A stretch of 64,000 nucleotides of DNA, taken from positions 1-64,000 of IMG/VR virus record IMGVR_UViG_2700988815_000001. One strand, given 5' to 3'. Shown in pieces: positions 1,338-64,000 of this stretch. Origin of the DNA: a virus (lineage: Duplodnaviria > Caudoviricetes). The notes beneath the pieces are model-generated. The model saw only the letters and a list, made by a program, of their open reading frames with translations, was not told the DNA's origin and did no database searches. The first letter of the stretch is position 1, and the number at the start of each line of letters is the position of its first letter. The translations under genes were made by a program, and so were the position numbers.

Positions 1338-1458
1338 TATTCTCCTTCATTTCATCTTCCCAAGATGGGATGCCATACCCTCTCAGATTCTCTATGTAAC
1401 GTTGGTGCTCTAATTGCTGAGCACAACGTCCACACCATCCGCAATCGCACTCTTCCAT
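1318..1458 (-). CDS. Small Cys-rich hypothetical protein (46 aa)
   Basis: Hand translation MEECDCGWCGRC...; fills the gap with coupled start/stop. Confidence 0.55.
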   Translation of the reverse strand: MEECDCGWCGRCAQQLEHQRYIENLRGYGIPSWEDEMKENNDESQD

Positions 1459-1655
1459 CAGTGTTTAGTCAGGTCGATTTGCAGAGAGTCATTGATTTGA
1501 ATATTCATTCGATCAACAACCAGTGCGAGAGCTTCACGGATGGCGTTCTCTACGCACATCAGGTGGCTAGACCGTGATGTGGTATTCTTGATGGTTTCTT
1601 CCGCACGTGCAGCAATACGGTTGATTTCTTGTGCGTTAGGGATAGGCAGTTTCAT
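1458..1655 (-). CDS. Hypothetical protein
   Basis: TAATG coupling with the upstream gene. Confidence 0.7.
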   Translation of the reverse strand: MKLPIPNAQEINRIAARAEETIKNTTSRSSHLMCVENAIREALALVVDRMNIQINDSLQIDLTKH

Positions 1656-2026
1656 TAGTAGTCTTCTCCGTTCAGGAATGCTTCGCACTCTTCTTTGATT
1701 TCATCATCCGCCAAGATAAACTCTGCCCACAGGGCAACATCCTTACGGTATTCATCTTCGCTCCAAGTGCCGTTTGCTTCTTCCCAAGCACTGTTGTATG
1801 GTTCGAATTTGAGTTGTTGGTCAGTGCAAGACAATACATGACCAGTGGACAGAACATAGCGGTCAGCTTTGATTTCCTCTACAATTGCATGGAAACCTTT
1901 GCTGTCCAAGAAGTCGTTCCACTCAGTGCCGTAGGAATAACGGTCAAAGAAGTAGTCGGTGAAGGATTCACCAGCGTCCATTTCCCAATCACGGATACGT
2001 TCTACGAGGGTTTCTACTGGGGTCAT
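1655..2026 (-). CDS. Hypothetical acidic protein
   Basis: ORF with RBS, coupled to neighbours. Confidence 0.8.
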   Translation of the reverse strand: MTPVETLVERIRDWEMDAGESFTDYFFDRYSYGTEWNDFLDSKGFHAIVEEIKADRYVLSTGHVLSCTDQQLKFEPYNSAWEEANGTWSEDEYRKDVALWAEFILADDEIKEECEAFLNGEDY

Positions 2027-2145
2027 ACTGGTTCTCCTTTGATGTATTGTTGTAGTAGTGCTTTGTAGTTTGGTTCCTCAAGGGGGAATTTCTCTCTCCA
2101 CTTGCGAATGTAGGCCATCCAGCCTGTTGGACTTTCCCCCTTCAT
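2023..2145 (-). CDS. Small hypothetical protein (40 aa)
   Basis: MKGESPTGWMAYIRKW...; TAATG and ATGA overlaps at the two ends. Confidence 0.6.
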   Translation of the reverse strand: MKGESPTGWMAYIRKWREKFPLEEPNYKALLQQYIKGEPV

Positions 2146-2537
2146 TACGTTCTCCCTAAGAGATAGAACACAGCCAAGTCTTCATCACCGTAGAGGTCAA
2201 TAGCTTCCTTGGCTTCTTTTAAGCCACATCCCACCTTCTCTCGCACGTTCTTGATCATCATCACCTTGTTGGGAATACTTGCAACACGCTGAAACTCTTC
2301 TTGTTCAGTATTGTATTGCTTTTCCGATTCGATTGCAAGCACTAAAGAGGTGAGCATTTGAAGAGCTTTCTCTTTGTTGGCATGTTGTGACCGTTCAGAG
2401 TCACAGGAGACACCCAGCCCAGTTGGGATATGATGCACGATAATCCCGCTTGTGGTGAGTCCTACAGTCATCCCGCCAGCACCATAGCCACTCTGTGGCA
2501 GGTAGGACGTTACACGTATATCTTGTGGATCAAGCAT
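2145..2537 (-). CDS. Class I release factor (RF-1) domain protein with GGM motif, fused to an L7/L12-CTD- or EF-Ts-N-like helical domain
   Basis: DIRV..SGYGAGGMTV...IIVHHIPTGLGVSCDSERSQHANKEKALQML matches RF domain 3; C-terminal KVMMIKNVREKVGCGLKEAKEAID. Confidence 0.8.
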   Translation of the reverse strand: MLDPQDIRVTSYLPQSGYGAGGMTVGLTTSGIIVHHIPTGLGVSCDSERSQHANKEKALQMLTSLVLAIESEKQYNTEQEEFQRVASIPNKVMMIKNVREKVGCGLKEAKEAIDLYGDEDLAVFYLLGRT

Positions 2538-2985
2538 CTTCTTCTCCGTAGTAGAGGATTTCTTCAAAGGTGTGTTCGAAGTTTTCAAGTACAGCCTCGT
2601 TGAACCAACGAGAAGCACCAGTAGGGCAGAGCTTCCCGCACTCTGCTAGTGCAGCATAGAAGTTATTATACTTCACTTTCTCTCGCATTGCAAGGTCGTG
2701 TTCCGTAGGAACATTTCTCCATCCGAAGTAGCAGGTTTCGATCTGAACGCCTGTGTCGTTAACCAGAACGAGCACACGATCACTCCCATAACCACTCTTC
2801 CAGTAGTGCGTGTAGGCGTCTATCTGATACCACTTCTCGCGTCCAGCCGTGGATTGGAGTTGCATGCAGTATGCACGATCCACTACCTCACTGTCAGGAA
2901 ACTTGTTGTAGAACGAGAAGTCACTTGAGGTGTAGCCCGTTTCCATGACGTAACATGGACGTTTGTCAATCAGAGTATCCACCAT
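2530..2985 (-). CDS. Hypothetical protein
   Basis: 151-aa ORF in the array. Confidence 0.8.
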   Translation of the reverse strand: MVDTLIDKRPCYVMETGYTSSDFSFYNKFPDSEVVDRAYCMQLQSTAGREKWYQIDAYTHYWKSGYGSDRVLVLVNDTGVQIETCYFGWRNVPTEHDLAMREKVKYNNFYAALAECGKLCPTGASRWFNEAVLENFEHTFEEILYYGEEDA

Positions 2986-3149
2986 ATTCCACTCTCCCTT
3001 CTTAGTCGTTTGTATTCCAGCTCAGTGATCATAGAGCCGTCAGCCATTTTGTACATCCATCCTCGGACTGGACTCAGGAAGCGCGTGGCGCCCCTTAGAC
3101 GCTCACGCACTGCCCTTCGTTGTTCTTCTAGTTCACGATACCTGTCCAT
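2970..3149 (-). CDS. Small hypothetical protein (59 aa)
   Basis: Hand translation MDRYRELEEQRR...; fills the gap. Confidence 0.5.
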   Translation of the reverse strand: MDRYRELEEQRRAVRERLRGATRFLSPVRGWMYKMADGSMITELEYKRLRRESGIWWIL

Positions 3150-3227
3150 CAGTGGTCAGTGCTCATGACGAGGACGAGAATGCAAATCCAGACACAGAAC
3201 AGGGCAAGGTCTAGTTCGTTGTTCATG

Positions 3228-3470
3228 TTAGTCTCCCCAGTAAGTGAGTTCTTCGTCCACTGCTTCTTTCGCACTGTACATCATTTCTCCACCTTCGTCT
3301 TTCGAGTGGTAGTGCAGATTATCCGCAAGCTCATAAGCCTGATCAACTTCTTCCTGTGCGTAGAGGCCAATGCTAATCATGTAAGCCACTGCATCAGCGA
3401 TCCACTCTTTACGTTCTGCTGCTTGACGGTCAGAACGAGTTACAAATGTCACTGCTTTAACTGCTGTCAT
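3228..3470 (-). CDS. Hypothetical protein
   Basis: ORF with AAGGAGG RBS. Confidence 0.8.
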   Translation of the reverse strand: MTAVKAVTFVTRSDRQAAERKEWIADAVAYMISIGLYAQEEVDQAYELADNLHYHSKDEGGEMMYSAKEAVDEELTYWGD

Positions 3471-3673
3471 TCTGGATAATCCTCCTTGTTAAAGTTTTGA
3501 CCCCAGTGGATGAGTGCATCTTCCAGTGTGAAGAAATACTCTACTGGAGGGAGGACATACGATCTTGCGTATGCCCTGATTTCCTCGTTCATGGGTTGTT
3601 CGCACCACGGTAGTGGCTCGACGTTCCCACAAATGTTACAGACTTTCGGAGTGTGTAACGGTTCCATTTTCAA
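3467..3673 (-). CDS. Hypothetical protein
   Basis: ORF with ATGA overlap; CxxC. Confidence 0.6.
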   Translation of the reverse strand: MKMEPLHTPKVCNICGNVEPLPWCEQPMNEEIRAYARSYVLPPVEYFFTLEDALIHWGQNFNKEDYPE

Positions 3674-25357: not shown

Positions 25358-25434
25358 TGGACGTTGGCCGACCGGCGCGAGGCAACAGGCTTTTAACCTG
25401 TATTAACTGAGTTCGATTCTCAGGCGTTCAACCA
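25358..25434 (+). tRNA. tRNA-Lys(TTT)
   Basis: Cloverleaf; ACAGG-ctTTTaa-CCTGT; CCA. Confidence 0.9.
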
Positions 25435-25438
25435 ATAT

Positions 25439-25527
25439 AGAGAGTTACGCAGCTAGGTGGCTGCACTTGTTTGCTAAACAAAGTGATCGAGAAATCGGTT
25501 GGGGATCAAGACCTCAGCTCTCTGCCA
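25439..25527 (+). tRNA. tRNA-Ser(GCT)
   Basis: ttGCTaa loop; long variable arm; GCCA. Confidence 0.8.
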
Positions 25528-25641
25528 GAATGATCGTGTCGCTCACGATATGACAAACGACTACATCGTGAGGGTTCTGCGATGTTCTTGAGCCAGATGG
25601 CAATCGGGGTAAGAGTCCCCACAGGCAACCTCTAAATTTAT

Positions 25642-25731
25642 GGCGGGTAGTGATCATGGCGATCAAGCTGTTTAGAAAGCAGTACCATTGGCTAGTACCC
25701 GGTGAGAGTTCGATTCCCTTACCCGCCTCCA
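25642..25731 (+). tRNA. tRNA-Ser(AGA), atypical
   Basis: GCTGT-ttAGAaa-GCAGT; long variable region; TCCA. Confidence 0.65.
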
Positions 25732-25737
25732 ACACAA

Positions 25738-25814
25738 CGGCAGTTGAAGCAACTGGTAATCTTCGTCAGCTCAAACCTGATGTATTCTGAGTTCGAATCT
25801 CAGACTGCCGACCA
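25738..25814 (+). tRNA. tRNA-Leu(CAA), short variable loop
   Basis: GTCAG-ctCAAac-CTGAT; ACCA. Confidence 0.8.
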
Positions 25815-25820
25815 AGCAAA

Positions 25821-25894
25821 GCTTCTTTAGTTTAATGGTAGAACGCCATCCTTACACGGTGGCTGCGGTGGTTCGATTCCATCAAGAAGCACCA
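25821..25894 (+). tRNA. tRNA-Val(TAC)
   Basis: ctTACac loop; ACCA. Confidence 0.92.
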
Positions 25895-26040
25895 AACATC
25901 ATAAAGTAATCGCGTTAGGGTTCGATTCCCTCCCAAGCCTCGGTGGACACCTGAAAGGGTGTGGTTCACAAAACGGATGAAACGTGACTAGAGAGTTGAC
26001 AAAGGATGGCCATCTGGAGTAGACTCTCGGTACTAACAAT

Positions 26041-26117
26041 TGGGGATTAGAATAGATGGCCTAATTCATCGGTCTTTGACACCGACAGCACTGGTTCGAA
26101 TCCAGTATCCCCTGCCA
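26041..26117 (+). tRNA. tRNA-Gln(TTG)
   Basis: TCGGT-ctTTGac-ACCGA; GCCA. Confidence 0.92.
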
Positions 26118-26136
26118 AACACAATAGGAGTATCAA

Positions 26137-26697
26137 ATGATTTACCTACGCTTCCTAGCACTATTCACAGTTGACATTCTGCTGACGATCCTTACGGTTG
26201 TTCCAGCAGCAATCATTGTTCCACTCTTCACAAGAGCACAGCAATGGGGTCAGAAAGAGTACACATGGGGCTGGCTGTGGGGTACATACGACAATCCGCC
26301 ACAAGGTGATGAAGGGTACTGCCGCAAGCGTGCTCTCTTCCTGAACGAGCTTACGGGCTTCAAGGGCTATATCAACCGAGTGATGTGGATGTTGAGAAAC
26401 CCTCTGTATGGGCTTGCCAAACGAATGGCATTGCCTTATAGTGAGACAGCAACATTGGTGATCACAGGTAATCCTGATATCTCTGACAAGTATCGAATTC
26501 CCGGCAGCATGATGGCCCGTCTGTACGAAGGCAACAAGCTGGTCGGTTTTGAGTTCTACATGGTCAAGCCTTGGAGTGCGAATAGAAACATTCGTTGCCG
26601 ACTAGGCTGGAAGATGACCACAGAGAAATACAAAGAAAAGGGCTTTGCCCAATTCGTCGGTACGTGCAATCCATTCGATGGATACGGCGACGATTGA
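26137..26697 (+). CDS. Hypothetical membrane-associated protein inside the tRNA array
   Basis: AGGAG RBS; N-terminal TM helix; WMLRNPLYG motif. Confidence 0.85.
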   Translation: MIYLRFLALFTVDILLTILTVVPAAIIVPLFTRAQQWGQKEYTWGWLWGTYDNPPQGDEGYCRKRALFLNELTGFKGYINRVMWMLRNPLYGLAKRMALPYSETATLVITGNPDISDKYRIPGSMMARLYEGNKLVGFEFYMVKPWSANRNIRCRLGWKMTTEKYKEKGFAQFVGTCNPFDGYGDD

Positions 26698-26788
26698 CAG
26701 AACATACCGCGCCTTGGTATGATCACCAAACCAACTGGTGATGTGACGCTCAGGAGACAGCGTGTTATAAGTGTCTCCCACGAATTAT

Positions 26789-26865
26789 AGGGGTGAAGTG
26801 TAATGGCTATGCACGCGGGATTCCAAATCCTTGCAGACTGGGTTCGATTCCTAGCACGCCTGCCA
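26789..26865 (+). tRNA. tRNA-Trp(CCA)
   Basis: ttCCAaa loop; GCCA. Confidence 0.85.
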
Positions 26866-26870
26866 AATAT

Positions 26871-26951
26871 GGTGTTATTGGTGACAGTCTTCTAGAGGGC
26901 TGGTTGTTGTGATGATTCTAGAGCGGGCAACATTTGTGCTTGACACCGCCA
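26871..26951 (+). ncRNA. tRNA-like RNA (acceptor stem and CCA, non-canonical body)
   Basis: GGTGTTA/TGACACC-GCCA; no TTCG T-loop. Confidence 0.55.
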
Positions 26952-26958
26952 ATCAAAT

Positions 26959-27035
26959 GGCCTTATAGTGTAAGGGAATTAGCACATCATCCTTCTAAGT
27001 TGATAGATAAGGTTCGAATCCTTATAGGGCTACCA
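26959..27035 (+). tRNA. tRNA-Arg(TCT)
   Basis: ctTCTaa loop; ACCA. Confidence 0.9.
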
Positions 27036-27056
27036 GAAAATAAATTGAAATAGTTG

Positions 27057-27085
27057 TTGACAACTGACTAAAGTCATGGTTTAAT
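27057..27085 (+). promoter_or_regulatory. Internal promoter of the tRNA array
   Basis: TTGACA-17-TTTAAT. Confidence 0.6.
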
Positions 27086-27117
27086 ACTCATACAGTTTAA
27101 CAAAAGGAGAGAATGAA

Positions 27118-27246
27118 ATGGCACAGCGTCCATACGATGCAACAAAGGAACACGCTCCACTGGATCGTACTCCAAAGAATAAAGGTCGTCACCCTAACAA
27201 ACGGGTGAAGAATAGTAAGCACCCAGTGACTGGGAAAAGCTACTAA
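27118..27246 (+). CDS. Small basic protein (42 aa)
   Basis: AAGGAG RBS; MAQRPYDATKEHAPLDRTPKNKGRHPNKRVKNSKHPVTGKSY. Confidence 0.65.
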   Translation: MAQRPYDATKEHAPLDRTPKNKGRHPNKRVKNSKHPVTGKSY

Positions 27247-27254
27247 GAATTAAT

Positions 27255-27331
27255 GCTCTTGTCGTCTAAAGGTATAGGATGGCTGACTTTCAATCAGTTG
27301 ATGTTGGGTTCGAGTCCCACCAAGAGTACCA
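27255..27331 (+). tRNA. tRNA-Glu(TTC)
   Basis: ctTTCaa loop; ACCA. Confidence 0.9.
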
Positions 27332-27335
27332 ATAT

Positions 27336-27411
27336 GGCTTATGTTTCCTCTGGGAAGGAAGGCACACTGTCTATGTGTCAGTTGAGGGTTCGAATCCCTT
27401 ATAGGTCGCCA
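27336..27411 (+). tRNA. tRNA-Asp(GTC)
   Basis: ctGTCta loop; GCCA. Confidence 0.85.
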
Positions 27412-27471
27412 AGCGCAGTCGTCATCGCAGACTTAAAATGGGATCGTCTCGGGCACGTTATAGCTCCCAAT

Positions 27472-27546
27472 GCCCTTGTCATATAAAGGCTATTATGCCT
27501 GTTTTGTAATCAGGTTATTGCGGTTCGAATCCGTACTGGGGCACCA
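27472..27546 (+). tRNA. tRNA-Thr(TGT)
   Basis: ttTGTaa loop; ACCA. Confidence 0.88.
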
Positions 27547-27552
27547 AATTCT

Positions 27553-27627
27553 TGCCGGATAGTATAGTGGTCTGTACACTCGCCTGATAAGCGATAGGTG
27601 AAAGTTCGATTCTTTCTCTGGCAACCA
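27553..27627 (+). tRNA. tRNA-Ile(GAT)
   Basis: ctGATaa loop; ACCA. Confidence 0.9.
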
Positions 27628-27633
27628 AATGAT

Positions 27634-27711
27634 ATAGCTGTGGCCCGAACTGGACTAGGCACCATCCTACGAAGTTGGTAAATGCAGGTTCGAATCCTGT
27701 CAGCTATGCCA
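27634..27711 (+). tRNA. tRNA-Arg(ACG)
   Basis: ctACGaa loop; GCCA. Confidence 0.9.
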
Positions 27712-27717
27712 AACAAA

Positions 27718-27797
27718 TGCGAAGGCGTTAAGACGGCTGGAACTGTCACTCGGCTCATACCCGAATACAAGAGGTTCGATTCCTCCTTTCGCAACCA
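27718..27797 (+). tRNA. tRNA-Met(CAT)
   Basis: ctCATac loop; ACCA; Met versus Ile2 identity not resolved. Confidence 0.8.
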
Positions 27798-27866
27798 AAC
27801 GCTGGGTGCTCCCCACGTACAGCCAGATAGAGTGTGCTGTATAAATATAGTCTCTATCAGAACAAT

Positions 27867-27943
27867 TGGTAATAGTCTCCCACGGCGGGGGTCTGCGGCT
27901 GTTAACCGCAAGTTGCTTGGTTCGATTCCAAGATTACCAGCCA
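27867..27943 (+). tRNA. tRNA-Asn(GTT)
   Basis: TGCGG-ctGTTaa-CCGCA; GCCA. Confidence 0.85.
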
Positions 27944-27950
27944 ATTTAAT

Positions 27951-28036
27951 TCCGTGTGTAGGGGAACTGGTAGACCCACCTGACTGTTAATCAGGCGCTA
28001 ACGCAACTGTAGGTTCGAAGCCTACCACCGGAGCCA
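27951..28036 (+). tRNA. tRNA-Asn(GTT) second copy, long variable arm
   Basis: CCTGA-ctGTTaa-TCAGG; 13-nt variable region; GCCA. Confidence 0.8.
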
Positions 28037-28041
28037 AACAA

Positions 28042-28128
28042 GGTCGTTGTAGAGATAGATGGCTACTATCAGGGTGCTGTAACCACCCCGCTTCATGCTA
28101 GAGGTTCAATTCCATCCTTCGACCACCA
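28042..28128 (+). tRNA. tRNA-Tyr(GTA)
   Basis: GGGTG-ctGTAac-CACCC; ACCA. Confidence 0.8.
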
Positions 28129-28154
28129 ATTTACAAATGACCTAACAAGTCAAT

Positions 28155-28228
28155 CTCTCGGAAGCGTTACGGTAGCGTACTTTGTTTGGAACGAAGTGGC
28201 GGTGGTTCGACTCCACCCCGAGTGACCA
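28155..28228 (+). tRNA. tRNA-Pro(TGG)
   Basis: ttTGGaa loop; ACCA. Confidence 0.88.
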
Positions 28229-28371
28229 ATTTACTGAAAAGGATTGTGCAGATTTGGTAAGTCGCAATTCGTCCCAGCCACGAATATAACCTGATCGGTA
28301 TGCTAGTGGGAGAAAGACTACGTGCAGGAATGAAGTGATCGCACGGGTCAACTGGCAGTAGACGCGATTAT

Positions 28372-28445
28372 GGGCTGTAAGAATTATGATAGTTCGCTAC
28401 GCTTGCACCGTAGAAGCCGGGGTTTGACTCCCCGACGGTCCACCA
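28372..28445 (+). tRNA. tRNA-Ala(TGC)
   Basis: CTACG-ctTGCac-CGTAG; G3:U70; ACCA. Confidence 0.88.
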
Positions 28446-28461
28446 AATTATAGGAGACAAT

Positions 28462-28614
28462 ATGAAAGTCCGAGTTAAGCAACGTGCAAAACGATTCAGT
28501 AGTATGTCGTGCAGATGCTGTACCAGAATTCATTTCAAAGAGGAAGCTATTGACAAGCAAGCCCTCAAAGAAGCTCTTGAAGAAATCCACACTCAAGAAG
28601 AAGAGTGGGTTTAA
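28462..28614 (+). CDS. Small protein (50 aa) inside the tRNA array
   Basis: AGGAG RBS; MKVRVKQRAKRFSSMSCRCC...EEEWV. Confidence 0.65.
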   Translation: MKVRVKQRAKRFSSMSCRCCTRIHFKEEAIDKQALKEALEEIHTQEEEWV

Positions 28615-28623
28615 AGATTTAAT

Positions 28624-28698
28624 GGTGAGGCCGTTGTCACTGGCTGACACTTCCGGCTGTGACCCGGTTGTTGGAGTTCGAATCTCCACCTCACACCA
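28624..28698 (+). tRNA. tRNA-His(GTG)
   Basis: ctGTGac loop; ACCA. Confidence 0.8.
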
Positions 28699-28704
28699 AA
28701 CAAT

Positions 28705-28781
28705 GCTCCTGTAGGCCAACTGGTAGAGTCAGTGCGCTTAGAACGCATAAAGTCTCGGTTCGAATCCGAGTGGGAGTACCA
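28705..28781 (+). tRNA. tRNA-Leu(TAG), short variable loop
   Basis: GTGCG-ctTAGaa-CGCAT; ACCA. Confidence 0.9.
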
Positions 28782-28838
28782 AATGTAGCCGCAAGGCAAG
28801 TAGTCTGCTAGACCCGGACTTAATAATGGGTGACGAAT

Positions 28839-28913
28839 GTGTCTTTGTCCGAGCGGCTGAGGTAGCGGATTGCAAACCCGTTTAGGTTGGTTCAACTCCA
28901 ACAAGATACTCCA
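28839..28913 (+). tRNA. tRNA-Cys(GCA)
   Basis: ttGCAaa loop; U73; CCA. Confidence 0.88.
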
Positions 28914-28919
28914 AATTCT

Positions 28920-28995
28920 GCGTGATTCGTATAGAGGTCTAATACTCTCGGCTTCCACCCGAGGAACCACGGTTCGACTCCGTGATCCCGCACCA
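28920..28995 (+). tRNA. tRNA-Gly(TCC)
   Basis: CTCGG-ctTCCac-CCGAG; ACCA. Confidence 0.9.
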
Positions 28996-29000
28996 ATTAT

Positions 29001-29076
29001 GCACTCTAAGCTGACTCGGTAGTAGCGACGGCCTGAAAAGTCGTAGGACTTGGTTCGACTCCAAGAGATTGCACCA
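29001..29076 (+). tRNA. tRNA-Phe(GAA)
   Basis: ACGGC-ctGAAaa-GTCGT; ACCA. Confidence 0.9.
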
Positions 29077-60474: not shown

Positions 60475-61103
60475 TGAGTCGTGTAGTAATTCTTGGTGGC
60501 GGTACATTCAATCATGTGGCTTGCCATCTGGCGTTGGCCGCTCCAGCCTTTGGTGGGACAGCCAAGCAACTCAACAAGATGTTCGCTGATAACGGCACGC
60601 TTGAGCCTTACCTCGCCCTGACGAAGATGGCAGACCCTGCCAGTCATATGATCACTAACGATCACGTTGCTCATTTCATTGAGCTGGCCCTTGGGGACGA
60701 AGACGTTAAGGCCATCATCATGAACGCAGCCATCTGTGATTTTGAAATGGATAACCCCAGCGAGGCTTCTCGCCTGTCCAGTTCTCAGGACTATCAGGTG
60801 ACGCTGCGAGGGATCAACACTAAGATCATGGCTTCCATCAAACAGAAGCGTCCAGATATCATCGTGGCTGGCTTCAAGACCACACACGGTGCAAGCAAGG
60901 TCGAGCAGGTGGCTAAAGCCTTCTCATCTATGCACAACTCGGGGCTTGACATGGTGTTGGCAAATGATGTAGAGACACGAAACAATATCCTTGTTACAAA
61001 GGATTTGACAATACAGACTGGCAGCCGTGAGTTTCTGCTTGACCAGTTGATGTGTACTACTGTAATCTACTACAACATGAAGCAATGGAATCTTGAAGAA
61101 TGA
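60471..61103 (+). CDS. CoaB-like (phosphopantothenate-cysteine ligase/DFP domain) protein
   Basis: GGGT, IMNAAICDF, VAGFK and VLAND motifs. Confidence 0.75.
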   Translation: MMSRVVILGGGTFNHVACHLALAAPAFGGTAKQLNKMFADNGTLEPYLALTKMADPASHMITNDHVAHFIELALGDEDVKAIIMNAAICDFEMDNPSEASRLSSSQDYQVTLRGINTKIMASIKQKRPDIIVAGFKTTHGASKVEQVAKAFSSMHNSGLDMVLANDVETRNNILVTKDLTIQTGSREFLLDQLMCTTVIYYNMKQWNLEE

Positions 61104-61315
61104 CTCACTGGCTGATCAAGACCGAGCACGGATACATGCTTGAGGATGCAGACGGACGGTTGATTGAATGGTTTGACATGGCATGCAACTCTAAGGCATA
61201 CTGCATGGAAGCCGGGATTACCCCGGTATATTTGACACAGAAGTGCCGACTGGCAGATCGTCAGGCATACAATGCCTACACAGGCAAAACATTATGGTGG
61301 GAGAACGAACAATGA
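61100..61315 (+). CDS. Hypothetical protein
   Basis: ATGA coupling. Confidence 0.65.
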   Translation: MTHWLIKTEHGYMLEDADGRLIEWFDMACNSKAYCMEAGITPVYLTQKCRLADRQAYNAYTGKTLWWENEQ

Positions 61316-61545
61316 CGCATGAAATGCACGCTCTGTTTATGCAGTATCCAGAGGCAATGGAAGAGCTTCAATACCAGATCGCGCGTAATGGTTTGGAGTA
61401 CGCTGACAGTTTCCGAATGGCGTTCTTTGATGACGATGCACAGGTTGAAGCCTACGATGATGCTGTCACCTGCTGTGGGAGTTTCGACACCACCATGAAG
61501 ATCAACGGAAAGCGCGTTCTCATTGGCTGCAACTACGGACACTGA
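61312..61545 (+). CDS. Hypothetical protein
   Basis: CCGSFD...IGCNYGH motif. Confidence 0.7.
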   Translation: MTHEMHALFMQYPEAMEELQYQIARNGLEYADSFRMAFFDDDAQVEAYDDAVTCCGSFDTTMKINGKRVLIGCNYGH

Positions 61546-61546
61546 T

Positions 61547-61762
61547 ATGAAGTTTATTGTTGGGCTTGGGTTGTGTACTGTTGCTATGTTTGGTAGTATC
61601 TTTATGGTGCAGGCTAACCACTTCGATGATCAGAAAATGGCTTGCAAGAGAGCTGATGGTCGTGGTAGCCTAGTTGTCAGTCGAGCAACAGGAATTCCAA
61701 TTGGATATGAGTGTATGAGAATGCACTTGGTACTTAAATACAGAAATGGAGAATACAGATGA
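61547..61762 (+). CDS. Membrane-anchored hypothetical protein
   Basis: N-terminal TM helix. Confidence 0.6.
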   Translation: MKFIVGLGLCTVAMFGSIFMVQANHFDDQKMACKRADGRGSLVVSRATGIPIGYECMRMHLVLKYRNGEYR

Positions 61763-61953
61763 ACAGAGAATTGGCTCATGCTTTCTCGCAACTGCGGGTT
61801 AGCCAACGTACTACTGTGCTGCAAGATATCAATTTGAATCTCCATCAAGCGAAGGAAGAGAGCAACAACGACTTCATGAAACGTTGCTTGGAAAAGATTG
61901 CATGTGCAGGGTTGATTCGTGAGCTGGAAGCTGCTATGCTGAGGTTTCAGTGA
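61759..61953 (+). CDS. Hypothetical protein
   Basis: Coupled ORF. Confidence 0.65.
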   Translation: MNRELAHAFSQLRVSQRTTVLQDINLNLHQAKEESNNDFMKRCLEKIACAGLIRELEAAMLRFQ

Positions 61954-62270
61954 GCGGCTGGGAACGTCAAGAGTTTTATGGCCATGATCCAAAGATTGTG
62001 GCGTTTGACTTTGATGAGACAATCAGCGATAATGAGCCGCTGTGGCTTCAAGTGATGCTTGCTCTGGAGAAGGGTGGCTACCATGTGATTGTCTGTACGT
62101 GGAGGACACCAACAACTTATCCAGAAGATTTGAAATTTCTTGTTGACAGGGGATTTAAAGTGTACTACACTTCCGGTCAAGCAAAACAAGATTACATGGC
62201 TAAGCAAGGAATCAGGGTAAACATTTGGGTTGATGACAATCCATTTGCAATCCTAAATAATGCAAAATAA
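61950..62270 (+). CDS. Minimal HAD-family phosphatase
   Basis: AFDFDETI, T.R, K and WVDDNP motifs. Confidence 0.85.
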   Translation: MSGWERQEFYGHDPKIVAFDFDETISDNEPLWLQVMLALEKGGYHVIVCTWRTPTTYPEDLKFLVDRGFKVYYTSGQAKQDYMAKQGIRVNIWVDDNPFAILNNAK

Positions 62271-62273
62271 GAG

Positions 62274-62301
62274 TTGACAGACTTCAAAAGTCTGCTACAA
62301 T
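62274..62301 (+). promoter_or_regulatory. Sigma70-like promoter with a 7-bp inverted repeat in the spacer
   Basis: TTGACA-16-TACAAT with extended TG; CAGACTT-caa-AAGTCTG. Confidence 0.75.
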
Positions 62302-62330
62302 GACCAAATCAAATATCAAAGGAGAAAGAT

Positions 62331-62948
62331 ATGACACAGATTTCCGTAACTCGCGCTCTGGCAGAAGTTAAAGCACTGAACGACCGCATCGAGAAAGCAA
62401 CCCGACAGGCCACCTTCATCAGCGTCACTGTTGGTGGCAAGGTTCCTAACGGTTCTGATCTGCAAGCAACAACCAACACCATCCGAGCAAACCTGCAATC
62501 GGTTCAAGACCTGATCGCTCGTCGTCAGGCTGTGAAGGGCGCTGTTGTTCGTTCCAACGCTGTAACCGAGGTTGTCATCAACGGCGTCACCATGACCGTC
62601 GCTGAGGCTATTGAGCGTAAAGGCTCTATCGACAAAGAGCGTACCCTTCTGGCTGTCCTGCAACAACAGCTCAACCAGAACCGCGTAGCAGTTGAACGCA
62701 ACAACGTCACCATGAACCAGAAGCTGGACATGATGATTCAGACTGCTGTTGGTAAGGAGCGTAAAGCTACCGAGGAAGAACTGGAAGCCATCAGCAAGCC
62801 TTACACCGCATCGAACATCACTGCTCCACTTGACCCTAACGGGCTGGAAGCTGTGATCGCCAAGCTGGAAGCAGAAATCAACGGGTTTGTATTCGAAGTT
62901 GACTTCGTTCTGTCTGAGGCAAACGCTAAGACTCTGATCGAGGCGTAA
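62331..62948 (+). CDS. Alpha-helical hairpin protein (reminiscent of DIP1984/DUF6847-type families)
   Basis: SVTRAL..., IVxSNAxT-like VVRSNAVT, MTVAEAI.RK and VD..LSE.NA.T.IE motifs; strong codon bias; family name is from memory. Confidence 0.8.
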   Translation: MTQISVTRALAEVKALNDRIEKATRQATFISVTVGGKVPNGSDLQATTNTIRANLQSVQDLIARRQAVKGAVVRSNAVTEVVINGVTMTVAEAIERKGSIDKERTLLAVLQQQLNQNRVAVERNNVTMNQKLDMMIQTAVGKERKATEEELEAISKPYTASNITAPLDPNGLEAVIAKLEAEINGFVFEVDFVLSEANAKTLIEA

Positions 62949-62955
62949 TGTTTTA

Positions 62956-63246
62956 TTCATGCTGCGACGAATTGCCTAAATTCTCGTGACCCTTTCCTCT
63001 GGGGTATATCAGGGGAGCCTATTATAGAATGGTATTCTAACCAATCACGCCAACCAATTCTCTGGCGAGAACTAGCATTGACAACGCTTAAAGTTCAAAT
63101 AGGAAAGCTGAAAAGCTTAAAGGTCAACTACTAACCTTTTAAAATTTGAAACAATACAGCTAAAAGCTTCTCCAAACCTTGGGATTACGTTGAGACGTAT
63201 AACGAGACGGACGCTGGCAATGCACCCGAGCTGTCGTTAGCATGAA
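62956..63246 (+). ncRNA. Candidate ~290-nt structured RNA with an A-rich heptad-repeat core
   Basis: Three nested long-range helices, several local hairpins, about 13 AAAGYT-like units. Confidence 0.75.
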
Positions 63247-63254
63247 AACCAATT

Positions 63255-63283
63255 AAGCCCTGCCCTCACCGGCGGGGCTTTTT
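63255..63283 (+). terminator. Intrinsic terminator
   Basis: AAGCCCTGCC...GGCGGGGCTT-TTT. Confidence 0.85.
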
Positions 63284-63295
63284 CACATCTAGGGG

Positions 63296-63323
63296 TTGAC
63301 AAGGGGTTAGAATGGTGTAGAAT
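63296..63323 (+). promoter_or_regulatory. Sigma70-like promoter
   Basis: TTGACA-16-TAGAAT followed by GGCCCACAT, as at 13040. Confidence 0.75.
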
Positions 63324-63351
63324 GGCCCACATACCAGACAGGAGATACACA

Positions 63352-63564
63352 ATGATTACTGAAGGTCAGATACTAAACTTCGCGGATGAACTTGAGAAAC
63401 GTGTACAAGAACGAGACAGCAGCTACACTGTGCGTGTACAATCCGCACAAGGGATTCACGGCCCTATGTTCTTGATTCATGTAGAAAATGCTACCGACTC
63501 CCAACGATTCGTGGTAGACTCTGCGCTTCACACATTCCTGAGAGAGTATGACGTTGGACAATAA
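63352..63564 (+). CDS. Hypothetical protein
   Basis: AGGAG RBS. Confidence 0.75.
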   Translation: MITEGQILNFADELEKRVQERDSSYTVRVQSAQGIHGPMFLIHVENATDSQRFVVDSALHTFLREYDVGQ

Positions 63565-63676
63565 AATCAGAAATCCCTTGGCAGCAGCCAACCGACGTGT
63601 TAATGTACCCAAGGTTGAACGCGACCGTACCAAGTATCGTCGCAAACGTAAACACAAGAAAGGAGAACAAGAATGA
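63548..63676 (+). CDS. Small basic protein (42 aa), ArfA-like motif
   Basis: MTLDNKIRNPLAAANRRVNVPKVERDRTKYRRKRKHKKGEQE; coupled at both ends. Confidence 0.65.
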   Translation: MTLDNKIRNPLAAANRRVNVPKVERDRTKYRRKRKHKKGEQE

Positions 63677-63855
63677 ATGTAGGTGATCGTGTAAAGGTTG
63701 TTGCAATCGTTGGCTCGCCACATGACTTCATGGGTGACGAAGGCACCATCGTGAAGCTGACAGAAGTACGTGACGGTGTTGTGTATGAAATGGAGGTTGA
63801 CTTTGACGAGTGGTTTGCTGTACCATTCATGGCTTCTGAACTGGAGGTGATTTAA
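63673..63855 (+). CDS. SH3/KOW-like small protein
   Basis: VGDRVKV...G..GTI...ELEVI. Confidence 0.7.
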   Translation: MNVGDRVKVVAIVGSPHDFMGDEGTIVKLTEVRDGVVYEMEVDFDEWFAVPFMASELEVI

Positions 63856-64000
63856 TGGCTAGCATCCCAACCCTGAACGGCAACACAATTATGATTCCGT
63901 TCCCAACAATCAACGCTGCATGGGACTTCTGTGTATCCGCTGGGCTGACTCAATTTGCAGTGCGAGAGTTGCCTGATGGCTTTAGCCTAGCAACCCCAAT
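63855..64000 (+). CDS. Hypothetical protein, truncated by the window edge
   Basis: TAATG coupling; open to the end of the window. Confidence 0.55.
   Translation, partial: MASIPTLNGNTIMIPFPTINAAWDFCVSAGLTQFAVRELPDGFSLATP

What the first reader, a model, noticed from the sequence alone, without database searches (positions are those of the whole stretch)
62274..63283. Self-contained protein + structured RNA unit with a 7-nt periodic repeat core: candidate new ribonucleoprotein system
Seen: a dedicated promoter (62274-62301), a 205-aa helical protein with strong codon bias, a ~290-nt non-coding element starting 8 nt after the stop, then a terminator. The element folds by three nested long-range helices: TTCATGCTGCGACG 62956-69 / TGTCGTTAGCATGAA 63232-46 (14 bp, one bulge), ATTGCC 62971-76 / GGCAAT 63216-21, and TCTCGT 62982-87 / ACGAGA 63202-07. 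Local hairpins include TTCCTCTG/CAGGGGAG, TAGAAT/ATTCTA, TTCTC-tggc-GAGAA and TACGT-tgag-ACGTA. The stems enclose an A-rich tract (63083-63180) of about 13 degenerate 7-8 nt units: AACGCTT AAAGTTC AAATAGG AAAGCTG a AAAGCTT AAAGGTC AACTACT AACCTTT t AAAATTT g AAACAAT ACAGCTA AAAGCTT ctcc AAACCTT. Inference: the protein may oligomerise on the repeat tract (about one subunit per heptad), with the RNA acting as scaffold, ruler or antitoxin. This could be a type III TA-like, membrane-active or anti-defence RNP. I do not recognise it as a named family.
Basis: partly seen in the sequence, partly recalled or inferred. Interest (0 to 1): 0.92.

Follow-up and report, generated by a model that had tools for sequence, protein, structure and literature searches.

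The report
Phage helical protein plus heptad-repeat RNA
Right behind a small helical-protein gene this Pseudomonas phage encodes a knotted, roughly 290-base non-coding RNA that displays twelve 7-base repeats, and the same unnamed gene-plus-RNA pair recurs in phage T5, hundreds of other large phages and some Bacillus chromosomes, so it looks like an undescribed protein-RNA particle whose job is unknown.

Summary
Window 62274-63283 is one transcription unit: a near-consensus sigma-70 promoter, a 205-aa mostly helical protein (phrog_1491, labelled 'tail fiber protein' there), a 291-nt structured RNA (62956-63246) and an intrinsic terminator. G-U pairs fix the folded strand as the transcribed one. 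An 87-nt tract (63083-63169) parses into twelve 7-8-nt units, family consensus AAAGNUY. The gene followed by a ~7.25-nt-periodic tract recurs in 96 of 99 viral loci down to 34% protein identity, including T5 and Bacillus phage G. It also recurs in 77 of 80 cellular genome contigs, where the two loci I checked sit among ordinary chromosomal genes. Rfam, Pfam, NCBIfam, PADLOC, PDB fold searches and five literature searches gave no name for either part. Heptad positions 1, 2 and 6 are constrained and positions 5 and 7 are not. The tract is not hypervariable, which argues against a fast-changing VIPR/CRISPR-like guide. My best reading is that about twelve protomers bind the heptad array, which the knotted core holds as a loop. 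Binding and function are untested. This scan found the same family earlier on other phage DNA.

The parts
62274..62301 (+). sigma-70-type promoter: TTGACA, 16-nt spacer with TG, TACAAT
   Evidence: 11 of 12 matches. No other + strand promoter-like site was reported between 62301 and 63296.
62320..62324 (+). Shine-Dalgarno sequence AGGAG, 6 nt before the ATG
   Evidence: Read from the sequence.
62331..62948 (+). CDS of 205 aa: helical-bundle protein of unknown function (phrog_1491, labelled 'tail fiber protein' in PHROGs)
   Evidence: E 2.1e-73; pLDDT 87.7; no Pfam family; 2,830 clusters at 50% identity; 737 phage records.
62956..63246 (+). Structured non-coding RNA of 291 nt, from the P1 5' strand to the P1 3' strand
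62956..62969 (+). P1 5' strand TTCATGCTGCGACG. It pairs with 63232-63246 (14 bp, one bulged T)
   Evidence: helix 1. Family-wide the closing helix has different sequences, 13-20 bp ungapped in distant clades.
62971..62976 (+). P2 5' strand ATTGCC. It pairs with GGCAAT at 63216-63221
   Evidence: Invariant in 16 close phages. In the 5 intermediate sequences aligned there, 30 of 30 cells pair, 9 of them compensatory.
62982..62988 (+). P3 5' strand TCTCGT(G). It pairs with 63201-63207
   Evidence: two columns with compensatory change (AU/UA 10:6, CG/UA 10:6). These are the top two covarying pairs in 28 sequences.
62989..63017 (+). 5' H-type pseudoknot. S1 is ACCC 62989-92 with GGGT 63002-05. S2 (= P4) is TTCCTCTG 62994-63001 with CAGGGGAG 63010-17. 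GCC follows
   Evidence: S2: two compensatory columns. S1 is invariant in the close clade, but S1 and S2 have different complementary sequences in other clades. The family-wide score exceeds the 95th percentile of own shuffles in 35 of 90 RNAs.
63018..63082 (+). Variable region with local hairpins (TAGAAT/ATTCTA 63025-39, TTCTC/GAGAA 63058-71) and the invariant TTGAC at 63079-83
   Evidence: mean pairwise identity 0.59. Other phages carry other hairpins here.
63083..63169 (+). Heptad tract of 12 units: AACGCTT AAAGTTC AAATAGG AAAGCTGA AAAGCTT AAAGGTC AACTACT AACCTTTT AAAATTTG AAACAAT ACAGCTA AAAGCTT
   Evidence: Units 6 and 8 can pair (AAAGGT/ACCTTT, 63119-24/63134-39, helix 5, 85% of cells paired). 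Relatives insert a UUCG- or GAAA-capped hairpin there.
63174..63183 (+). AAACC motif plus the 3' pseudoknot 5' strand CTTGG(G) at 63178-83
   Evidence: helix 6, 100% of cells paired; 50 of 55 cells.
63187..63198 (+). P7 hairpin ACGT-TGAG-ACGT, specific to the close clade
   Evidence: 96.9% paired. Only 14 of 44 cells pair in the intermediate clade.
63225..63230 (+). 3' pseudoknot 3' strand (C)CCGAG, followed by the conserved CUG. The helix crosses P2 and P3
   Evidence: AAAYC + 5-bp helix + (G)CT[GA] in 79 of 89 distinct regions, against 4.5 expected. About 20 different complementary 5-mers.
63232..63246 (+). P1 3' strand TGTCGTTAGCATGAA
63257..63283 (+). Intrinsic terminator: G+C-rich hairpin followed by TTTTT
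   Evidence: core 63262-63278. I extended the stem by reading the sequence.

Best explanation
The locus is an autonomous two-part module. One strong host-type promoter drives an mRNA that encodes a 205-aa helical protein. Its 3' part folds into a closed RNA of about 290 nt.

In that RNA a stacked rod (P1-P2-P3) and two pseudoknots form a clasp. The clasp holds an 87-nt, mostly single-stranded loop made of twelve AAAGNUY heptads.

I infer that the protein made from the same transcript binds the array at about one protomer per heptad, reading A1, A2 and U6. That would give a particle of defined size, roughly twelve protomers on one RNA, either a closed ring with an RNA belt or a short capped filament.

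The array is kept stable over evolution rather than re-programmed. The particle would therefore do one fixed job that large virulent phages and some Bacillota both need, most likely in RNA or translation-related housekeeping or host take-over.

What is shown: the transcription-unit signals, the RNA fold, the repeat array, and the linkage of gene and RNA.
What is inferred: binding, stoichiometry and function.
For: 1. Single unit: promoter 11 of 12, a terminator, and no + strand promoter-like site between them.
2. RNA fold: 94.2% of cells paired against 34-45% slid; 32 both-side changes against 11.9, with 0 of 500 shuffles as high. G-U pairs are fixed in 16 of 16 sequences at five P1 and P4 positions, which would be C-A on the other strand.
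3. Pseudoknot plus closing helix occur family-wide: 79 of 89 regions against 4.5 expected. The P1 run is at least 8 bp in 68 of 78 RNAs.
4. The heptad array is a family hallmark: the dominant period is 6.75-8.5 nt in 96 of 99 viral loci, while the upstream control is spread over 4-15. It is 6.75-8 nt in 77 of 80 cellular loci.
5. The parse gives 12 units in 39 of 90 RNAs and 13-15 in 29.
6. Constraint is periodic: mean pairwise identity at unit positions 1, 2 and 6 is 0.93, 0.86 and 0.85, against 0.56 and 0.61 at positions 5 and 7. Third codon positions of the neighbouring gene in the same phages give 0.57.
7. Only the module (gene plus about 290 nt) is shared between Bacillus or Lysinibacillus species whose flanks differ.
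8. The tract's two ends are brought together by the core, which is the topology a belt round a ring would need.
Against:
- The protein is not basic: pI 5.73, with 24 K+R against 25 D+E.
- It has no recognisable RNA-binding fold.
- Parts of the tract can form small hairpins (AAGCU-GAAA-AGCUU; units 6/8), so it is not wholly single-stranded.
- The unit count is 11 or fewer in 17 of 90 parses. I checked only one of these (L004), where an inserted hairpin breaks the chain.
- Function is a guess.
Confidence: 0.55

Rival explanations
1. Non-contiguous guide RNP, VIPR-like logic with unrelated parts. Protomers clamp the constant bases and expose positions 5 and 7 of each heptad (about 24 bases in all) to read a nucleic-acid target.
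For: Constrained and free positions alternate within each unit. The array has 12 units, in the range of the 9-16 repeats of vrRNAs (Results section of bioRxiv 10.64898/2026.04.26.720920). The module sits in phages. A structured tail follows the array.
Against: - The array is not hypervariable. In 23 distinct T5-like phages tract identity is 0.982, against 0.869 at third codon positions of the adjacent gene.
- In the Pseudomonas clade positions 5 and 7 drift at about the synonymous rate, not faster.
- There is one RNA per locus, not an array of RNAs.
- In the B. pumilus group the whole 6.6-kb locus is syntenic in 7 species.
- I ran no target search.
Confidence: 0.12
2. Cis-acting 3' UTR only. 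The structure stabilises the mRNA or lets the protein autoregulate its own synthesis, and there is no separate particle with a function of its own.
For: The RNA is always on the same transcript, beginning 4 to 92 nt after the stop codon. No separate promoter was found.
Against: A fold of 290-430 nt with two pseudoknots and a conserved 12-unit array, kept from T5 to Bacillus phage G and into bacterial chromosomes, is far more than a stabiliser needs. Autoregulation would still require the protein to bind the RNA.
Confidence: 0.15
3. The RNA acts on host factors as a sponge or decoy for an RNA-binding protein or an RNase that likes A-rich single strands. The neighbouring protein is only a helper, or is unrelated.
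For: The tract is A-rich and single-stranded (45% A). The protein is not basic and has no RNA-binding fold. Sponge RNAs with repeated short motifs are known (CsrB/RsmZ, recalled).
Against: Linkage of gene and RNA across 34-100% protein identity, in very different hosts (Pseudomonas, E. coli, Vibrio, Bacillus, Lactococcus), points to a partner that travels with the RNA rather than to a host factor.
Confidence: 0.12
4. Type III toxin-antitoxin pair: the protein is the toxin and the repeat RNA is the antitoxin.
For: A protein gene sits next to a repeat RNA with pseudoknots, and the module is found in phages and chromosomes.
Against: - No ToxN-type family at E up to 1, and no PADLOC model for the window's protein.
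- The repeats are 7 nt, not about 34-37 nt, and lie downstream rather than upstream behind a terminator (recalled features of the family; I saw the tenpIN papers only in the listing).
- The model is a helical bundle.
Confidence: 0.03
5. DNA-level element: a replication origin, iterons or a promoter cluster upstream of the primase/helicase gene.
For: The tract is AT-rich and repeated, about 1.5-2 kb upstream of a T7-like primase/helicase gene in relatives. The KIL phage annotators placed a promoter inside the region.
Against: - The G-U pairs are strand-specific and the helices covary.
- The orientation relative to the gene is always the same.
- The module is also present in bacterial chromosomes among ordinary genes.
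- The scan found no + strand promoter inside the region.
Confidence: 0.03

Closest known systems
VIPR systems (Vipr protein + vrRNA). bioRxiv 10.64898/2026.04.26.720920: abstract and Results read. Companion 10.64898/2026.04.26.720927: abstract in a listing only.
   Same: Mostly phage-encoded. A small protein gene sits next to a non-coding RNA made of about 9-16 very short tandem units in which fixed and free positions alternate. A structured, pseudoknotted part flanks the array. Protomers are reported to oligomerise along the repeats.
   Different: - Vipr is a RAMP (RRM core, G-loop, thumb). This protein models as a helical bundle.
- The unit is 5 nt (GGY/NN) there and about 7 nt (AAAGNUY) here.
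- vrRNAs are about 100 nt, often several per locus, and hypervariable at NN. Here there is one RNA of 290-430 nt closed by a long helix, and its array is conserved.
- No vap-like partner gene was seen here.
TRAP and HutP, ring-shaped proteins that bind regularly spaced triplets in RNA (recalled from general knowledge, not from a call)
   Same: An oligomer of fixed size reads a short motif repeated at a fixed spacing on single-stranded RNA. As I recall, HutP's UAG motifs are 7 nt apart and TRAP reads 11 triplets.
   Different: Those are small regulators acting on leader RNAs of other genes. There was no sequence-family match here (Pfam). Their RNA targets are not closed knotted domains and are not co-inherited with the protein gene as one module.
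Type III toxin-antitoxin systems (ToxIN, CptIN, TenpIN). Papers seen only as titles and abstracts in the listing; features recalled.
   Same: A protein plus a tandem-repeat, pseudoknot-forming RNA encoded side by side. Found in bacteria and phages.
   Different: Their repeat is about 34-37 nt, lies upstream of the toxin and is cut by it. The toxin is an endoribonuclease. Here the units are 7 nt, lie downstream inside one large fold, and no nuclease family was found.
DUF6847 / DIP1984 (PDB 3KDQ), a protein family of unknown function
   Same: Weak matches only: 3kdq at E 0.39 with the family profile. PF20935 at E 0.11-0.19 in 2 of 8 distant homologues. An Atlas cluster in which 16% of members carry PF20935, score 0.89.
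   Different: All these are below every threshold, and the family has no known function, so it explains nothing.

Membership tests
VIPR | The protein is a RAMP: RRM core with G-loop and thumb | tested here: inconclusive
   The AF2 model has five helices (6-26, 44-74, 90-140, 148-162, 172-200) and four 3-4-residue strands, which does not look like an RRM. No Cas or RAMP chain appeared among the Foldseek or VIA rows shown, but absence from a fold list is not exclusion.
VIPR | The RNA is made of 9-16 tandem 5-nt GGY/NN units | tested here: not met
   The period is 7.25 nt and the consensus is A.87 A.79 A.58 G.56 N U.81 Y.
VIPR | The variable positions are hypervariable among close relatives | tested here: not met
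   In 23 T5-like phages tract identity is 0.982 against 0.869 at codon position 3. In the Pseudomonas clade positions 5 and 7 give 0.56 and 0.61 against 0.57 at codon position 3.
Type III toxin-antitoxin | The toxin belongs to a ToxN/CptN/TenpN-type endoribonuclease family | tested here: not met
   Pfam at E up to 1 gave only POTRA_1, below its cut-off. PADLOC gave nothing for the window's protein.
Type III toxin-antitoxin | The antitoxin is an array of about 34-37-nt repeats upstream of the toxin gene | tested here: not met
   The units are 7-8 nt and lie downstream of the gene inside one closed fold. The family's feature is recalled.
Type III toxin-antitoxin | The protein is toxic and the RNA neutralises it | not testable with these tools
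   Needs expression experiments.
Any Rfam 15 family | Covariance-model score at or above the gathering threshold | tested here: not met
   Window 61000-64000 at E up to 10: the best hit is isrJ at 23.4 bits against a threshold of 37, and it lies on the terminator hairpin. Ten diverse loci at gathering threshold gave only tRNAs.
tmRNA / tRNA-like | ARAGORN detection of a tRNA-like domain with a tag | tested here: not met
   In the window ARAGORN found 20 tRNAs at 25358-29076, no tmRNA, and nothing at 62949-63290.
DUF6847 (PF20935) | Pfam score at or above the gathering threshold (27 bits) | tested here: not met
   Not listed for the window's protein. 12.1 and 12.9 bits in 2 of 8 distant homologues. 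A distant relationship stays open.
Phage tail fibre (the PHROG and RefSeq label) | Late structural-gene context and a fibre-like fold | tested here: not met
   The gene sits among small genes just upstream of the primase/helicase gene and has its own sigma-70-type promoter. The model is a compact helical bundle. Homologues sit among ordinary chromosomal genes in Bacillus and Lysinibacillus. No virion proteomics were checked.

The most novel reading that the evidence does not exclude
A second, independent invention of non-contiguous nucleic-acid recognition. About twelve helical, non-RAMP protomers clamp A1, A2 and U6 of each heptad and present positions 5 and 7 (about 24 bases) to read one fixed target. 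Cells such as the B. pumilus group and large phages such as T5 would share this particle.
Probability: 0.1. Interest if true: 0.95.

Novelty: categorically new. Interest (0 to 1): 0.85.

Why it matters
If the protein and RNA form a particle, this is a large and old ribonucleoprotein family that no catalogue I searched names. The protein family has 2,830 clusters at 50% identity and appears in 737 phage records. It is present in the model phage T5 and in Bacillus chromosomes, so it can be tested at once with standard genetics and biochemistry.

The RNA architecture is a closed, doubly knotted clasp presenting twelve 7-nt units. That is a new way of displaying a short-repeat array. It gives a second example, unrelated in parts, to set beside the recently described VIPR systems. 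Whether the array is a ruler, a belt for a ring or a reading head is an open, directly answerable question.

It also corrects a 'tail fiber protein' label that appears on many of the 737 phage records.

Tried and rejected
Rfam, Pfam, PHROGs (8, label only), NCBIfam and PADLOC gave no name. So did a PDB sequence profile (17), Foldseek PDB (nothing at E <= 1e-3), VIA-align wide (65; best Z 9.1 to syntaxin, within the noise stated for helical models), BFVD (76; only uncharacterised phage proteins) and the ESM Atlas (92; 'hypothetical protein').

Expression. The look-up of sequencing runs listed no holder on record as RNA. I laid four coded wastewater 'RNA-Seq' runs, kept as contigs and probably DNA. 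They showed pieces of related phages and nothing about RNA ends or level, so they are no evidence either way.

A covariance model of the whole RNA could not be built (forecast over the limit). I used nhmmer, hmmalign and alignment-free scripts instead. These select or fit sequences, so their pair counts lean towards the structure. Shuffle controls are given with each.

A scan of all column pairs in 28 close sequences found no further helix beyond P3 and P4 above the phylogenetic noise. P7 failed in the intermediate clade (14 of 44 cells). The hmmalign test left the 5' half of 6 of 11 intermediate sequences unaligned, so the P1, P3 and S1/S2 counts there are uninformative.

About 6 of the 79 pseudoknot hits lie at odd positions and are probably chance hits. 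The P1 control is weak for the close clade, because G-U pairs are allowed, the sequences are A/T-rich and a bulge breaks the run. Only 32 of 78 rows beat all 100 of their shuffles.

I considered a group I intron, but there is no second exon: a terminator follows. I considered a coding region, but no + strand ORF of 30 aa or more lies in 62949-63290 and a 7.25-nt period is not a coding period.

Literature searches found no description of this pair. Section 2.3 of bioRxiv 10.64898/2026.10.21.760802 reports a period-7 cluster, but it is from Patescibacteriota and has no partner protein. Supplements were closed and may list more. I ran no search for targets of a position-5/7 code.
Full report
WHAT THE WINDOW IS. 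The window is a Pseudomonas syringae myophage of the Otagovirus type. The stretch 62274-63300 is 99% identical to phiPsa397 and phiPsa300. The genome held is 98,287 bases with terminal repeats. It carries 20 tRNA genes at 25358-29076.

THE TRANSCRIPTION UNIT. The pattern scan finds TTGACA-16-TACAAT at 62274-62301, 11 of 12 matches with TG before the -10. The next comparable + strand site is at 63296-63323, after a terminator-like hairpin with a T-run at 63262-63283. There are 8 promoter-like sites in 2 kb against 2.4 expected. Between them lie AGGAG (62320-24), an ORF of 205 codons (62331-62948) and 300 nt without any + strand ORF of 30 aa or more. A weak terminator-like hairpin lies inside the CDS (62894-62907). 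I take it as chance.

THE PROTEIN.
- It matches phrog_1491 (E 2.1e-73), whose label 'tail fiber protein' explains the RefSeq names.
- It matches no Pfam, NCBIfam or PADLOC model above threshold.
- With 25 homologues, AlphaFold2 gives pLDDT 87.7 and pTM 0.79: helices 6-26, 44-74, 90-140, 148-162 and 172-200, plus four very short strands.
- Foldseek against the PDB finds nothing at E <= 1e-3.
- The exhaustive VIA search peaks at Z 9.1 (syntaxin). The tool's own note places that within the range seen for unrelated helical bundles.
- BFVD returns only uncharacterised phage proteins.
- It has no hydrophobic segment, and its pI is 5.73.
- The family is large and uniform in length: 2,830 clusters at 50% identity with E <= 1e-3, and nearly all of the best 150 are about 195-240 aa.
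- tblastn finds it in 737 phage records: 285 Salmonella, 140 Escherichia, 55 Vibrio, 50 Pseudomonas, 33 Bacillus, 32 Klebsiella and 22 Lactococcus among others. These include T5 relatives and Bacillus phage G.
- Across 38 distant members L10, N76, A93, I94, L194 and N198 are invariant, and R8, K14 and K69 nearly so.

THE RNA FOLD IN CLOSE RELATIVES. The non-coding stretch alone finds 42 phage records, 40 of them over at least 80% of its length at 70-100% identity. An alignment of 16 distinct phages shows nearly invariant 5' and 3' parts, a variable middle, and inserted hairpins capped by UUCG or GAAA loops, as expected of an RNA.

I counted my fuller structure: P1, P2, P3, P4, a hairpin between heptads 6 and 8, P7 and a pseudoknot.
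- 94.2% of 816 cells are standard pairs, against 34-45% with partners slid by 1-3 columns.
- 8 pairs changed on both sides.
- 32 such cells, against 11.9 in shuffles, with 0 of 500 shuffles as high.
- The covariation score is 0.145 against 0.077.

The compensatory columns are in P3 (AU/UA 10:6 and CG/UA 10:6) and P4 (CG/GC 11:5 and GC/UA 9:6). In an unbiased scan of all column pairs in 28 sequences these four are the top four. G-U pairs are fixed in all 16 sequences in P1 and P4. They would be C-A mismatches on the other strand, so the folded strand is the transcribed one. The window's RNA folds to -82 kcal/mol against -62.8 for shuffles, z = -3.8.

TWO PSEUDOKNOTS. Right after the repeat tract comes AAACC and then CTTGG(G) at 63178-83. 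This pairs with (C)CCGAG at 63225-30, just before a conserved CUG and the P1 3' strand. That helix crosses P2 and P3.

An alignment-free search for AAAYC + 5-bp helix + (G)CT[GA] finds it in 79 of 89 distinct regions downstream of homologous genes, against 4.5 expected in shuffles. The two strands are usually 47-55 nt apart. About 20 different complementary 5-mers occur, for example T5 CCTAG/CTAGG, phage G CCAAG/CTTGG and others CCGCA/TGCGG. About six hits lie elsewhere and are probably chance.

In 11 intermediate sequences that were found by sequence similarity, not by complementarity, 50 of 55 cells pair.

At the 5' side, ACCC (62989-92) can pair with GGGT (63002-05) around the 5' strand of P4, giving an H-type knot followed by GCC. 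These bases do not vary in the close clade. Other clades have the same arrangement with other sequences, for example GCGTCC/GGACGT with TTCTCGC/GCGAGAG, and TGGGGT/ACCCTG with TTACGGTGT/ACATCGTAG. The best knot score exceeds the 95th percentile of own shuffles in 35 of 90 RNAs, about 4.5 expected by chance. I rate this knot likely, not proven.

THE CLOSING HELIX AND P2. With the 3' knot as anchor, the 20 nt after it pair with a stretch 4-92 nt behind the stop codon. The ungapped run is at least 8 bp in 68 of 78 RNAs. It is 13-20 bp in the distant clades (20 bp in T5), with unrelated sequences. The shuffle control is weak for the close clade, and only 32 of 78 rows beat all 100 of their shuffles. 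P2 is invariant in the close clade but changes to GTTGTC/GATGAC or GTTGTT/AGCAGC in intermediates: 30 of 30 cells pair and 9 are compensatory. P7 does not hold outside the close clade (14 of 44 cells).

THE HEPTAD TRACT.
- In the window, A-power peaks at 7.25 nt (2.92, against a maximum of 2.34 in 500 shuffles). Identity autocorrelation at lags 7, 8 and 21 has z = 3.0-3.3.
- Downstream of 99 viral homologues the strongest period in any 84-nt window is 6.75-8.5 nt in 96. Upstream controls scatter from 4 to 15 nt, and 15 of 98 round to 7 or 8.
- An EM/Viterbi parse of 90 distinct RNAs gives the consensus A .87, A .79, A .58, G .56, N, U .81, Y .75.
- The parse gives 12 units in 39 RNAs, 13-15 in 29, 16-18 in 5 and 11 or fewer in 17. 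I looked at one short parse (L004), where an inserted hairpin breaks the chain.
- The window has 12 units at 63083-63169.
- In the 16-phage alignment, mean pairwise identity by unit position is 0.93, 0.86, 0.73, 0.79, 0.56, 0.85 and 0.61. Third codon positions of the neighbouring gene in the same phages give 0.57. So positions 1, 2 and 6 are held, and positions 5 and 7 drift about neutrally.
- In 23 distinct T5-like phages the tract is 0.982 identical. The RNA's 5' part is 0.966 and its 3' part 0.989, against 0.869 for third codon positions. That set was picked by an exact 25-nt match in the 3' part, which biases only that part.
- The few variable tract columns fall at unit positions 3, 4, 5, 7 and 8, never at 1, 2 or 6.
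- The array is therefore conserved, not re-programmed.

DISTRIBUTION AND CONTEXT.
- A profile of the close-clade RNA finds it on the + strand just behind the gene in 52 of the 98 loci then held, including the 174-kb phages Milchi and Astolliot, whose protein is 52% identical.
- In T5 and phage G the annotated gaps behind the gene are 442 and 520 nt.
- In one-genome-per-species contigs, 91 stretches encode a relative. Of the 80 kept, 77 have the 6.75-8-nt period downstream, and the strict knot pattern matches 32. They include Lysinibacillus, the B. pumilus group, Brevibacillus, Paenibacillus and Sericytochromatia MAGs.
- In Lysinibacillus (L154) the neighbours are DUF1963, an MFS transporter and a TRAM-domain RNA methyltransferase. 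In B. pumilus (L140) they are homocysteine S-methyltransferase, an amino-acid permease and subtilases. These are not phage genes.
- The B. pumilus group is syntenic over all 6.6 kb in 7 species. Between groups with different flanks only about 900 nt, the gene plus its RNA, is shared.
- In several phages tRNA genes flank the module.

WHAT IT IS NOT. Rfam has no match, and ARAGORN finds no tmRNA. It is not a VIPR system as defined in bioRxiv 10.64898/2026.04.26.720920 (abstract and Results read): the unit length, motif, variability and RNA architecture all differ, and the model does not look like a RAMP. It fails the tested type III toxin-antitoxin features. A DNA-level role does not fit the strand-specific covarying fold, nor the chromosomal copies.

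HOW IT MOST LIKELY WORKS. Shown: one transcript carries the gene and a closed RNA whose core brings the two ends of a 12-heptad loop together. Gene and RNA are inherited as one unit across very distant hosts. Three positions of each heptad are constrained.

Inferred: the protein binds the heptads at about one protomer each, and the result is a particle of fixed size. A ring with an RNA belt fits the closed-loop topology. A short capped filament fits as well. The stable array, and the locus syntenic across seven species of the B. pumilus group, suggest a fixed rather than programmable task. The company of tRNA genes, RNA ligase and replication genes in phages hints at RNA or translation-related work. 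That is a guess.

Against the inference: nothing here shows contact, the protein is slightly acidic, and parts of the tract can form small hairpins.

EARLIER NOTES OF THIS SCAN. Three follow-ups on other Pseudomonas phage genomes reached much the same reading. They gave me the VIPR and DUF6847 leads. I re-derived the fold, the knots, the periodicity and the distribution from my own calls. Their statement that the RNA is seen as a discrete molecule I could not test.

VERDICT. The feature is real and widespread, and nothing I could search names it. The structure is well supported. Binding and function are open.

Noticed in passing
L002 (phiPsa267, MT670417) 1390-3493, equivalent to window 61901-63700: This record carries the element as an inverted, partly duplicated block. 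Window 61901-63044 is colinear, then comes the reverse complement of 62877-63297, then 63161-63700. It is either a misassembly or a real rearrangement around the RNA.
   Followed up: partly
window 25358-29076: A cluster of 20 tRNA genes on the + strand, including two tRNA-Asn and two each of tRNA-Arg and tRNA-Leu. Homologous modules in other phages often sit beside tRNA genes.
   Followed up: no
window 62316-62960, minus strand: A 214-codon open frame runs antisense to the whole gene. With low ENC it ranks among the most biased mechanical ORFs. It is most likely a shadow of the codon usage on the + strand.
   Followed up: no
L140 2998-3883; L154 2972-3914: In bacteria the module has sharp borders. 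Species with unrelated flanks share only the gene plus about 270-290 nt downstream at 70-75% identity, as if the 0.9-kb unit moves or is kept on its own.
   Followed up: partly
window 61950-62270: The upstream 106-aa gene (phrog_4256, E 1.1e-47) has weak matches to phosphatase-like families labelled phosphoheptose isomerase and polynucleotide kinase. It is not part of the module in other clades.
   Followed up: no
L009 285-509 (Pyxpy01): The small gene just upstream of the module is annotated 'SsrA-binding protein smpB' in that record. It is 74 aa, the label looks doubtful, and I did not check it.
   Followed up: no
window 63079-63084 and L001 3323-3351: An invariant TTGAC(A) sits just before the heptad tract. 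The KIL phage annotators called a promoter inside the RNA, but the scan here reports no + strand promoter there. What the TTGAC does in the RNA is unexplained.
   Followed up: partly
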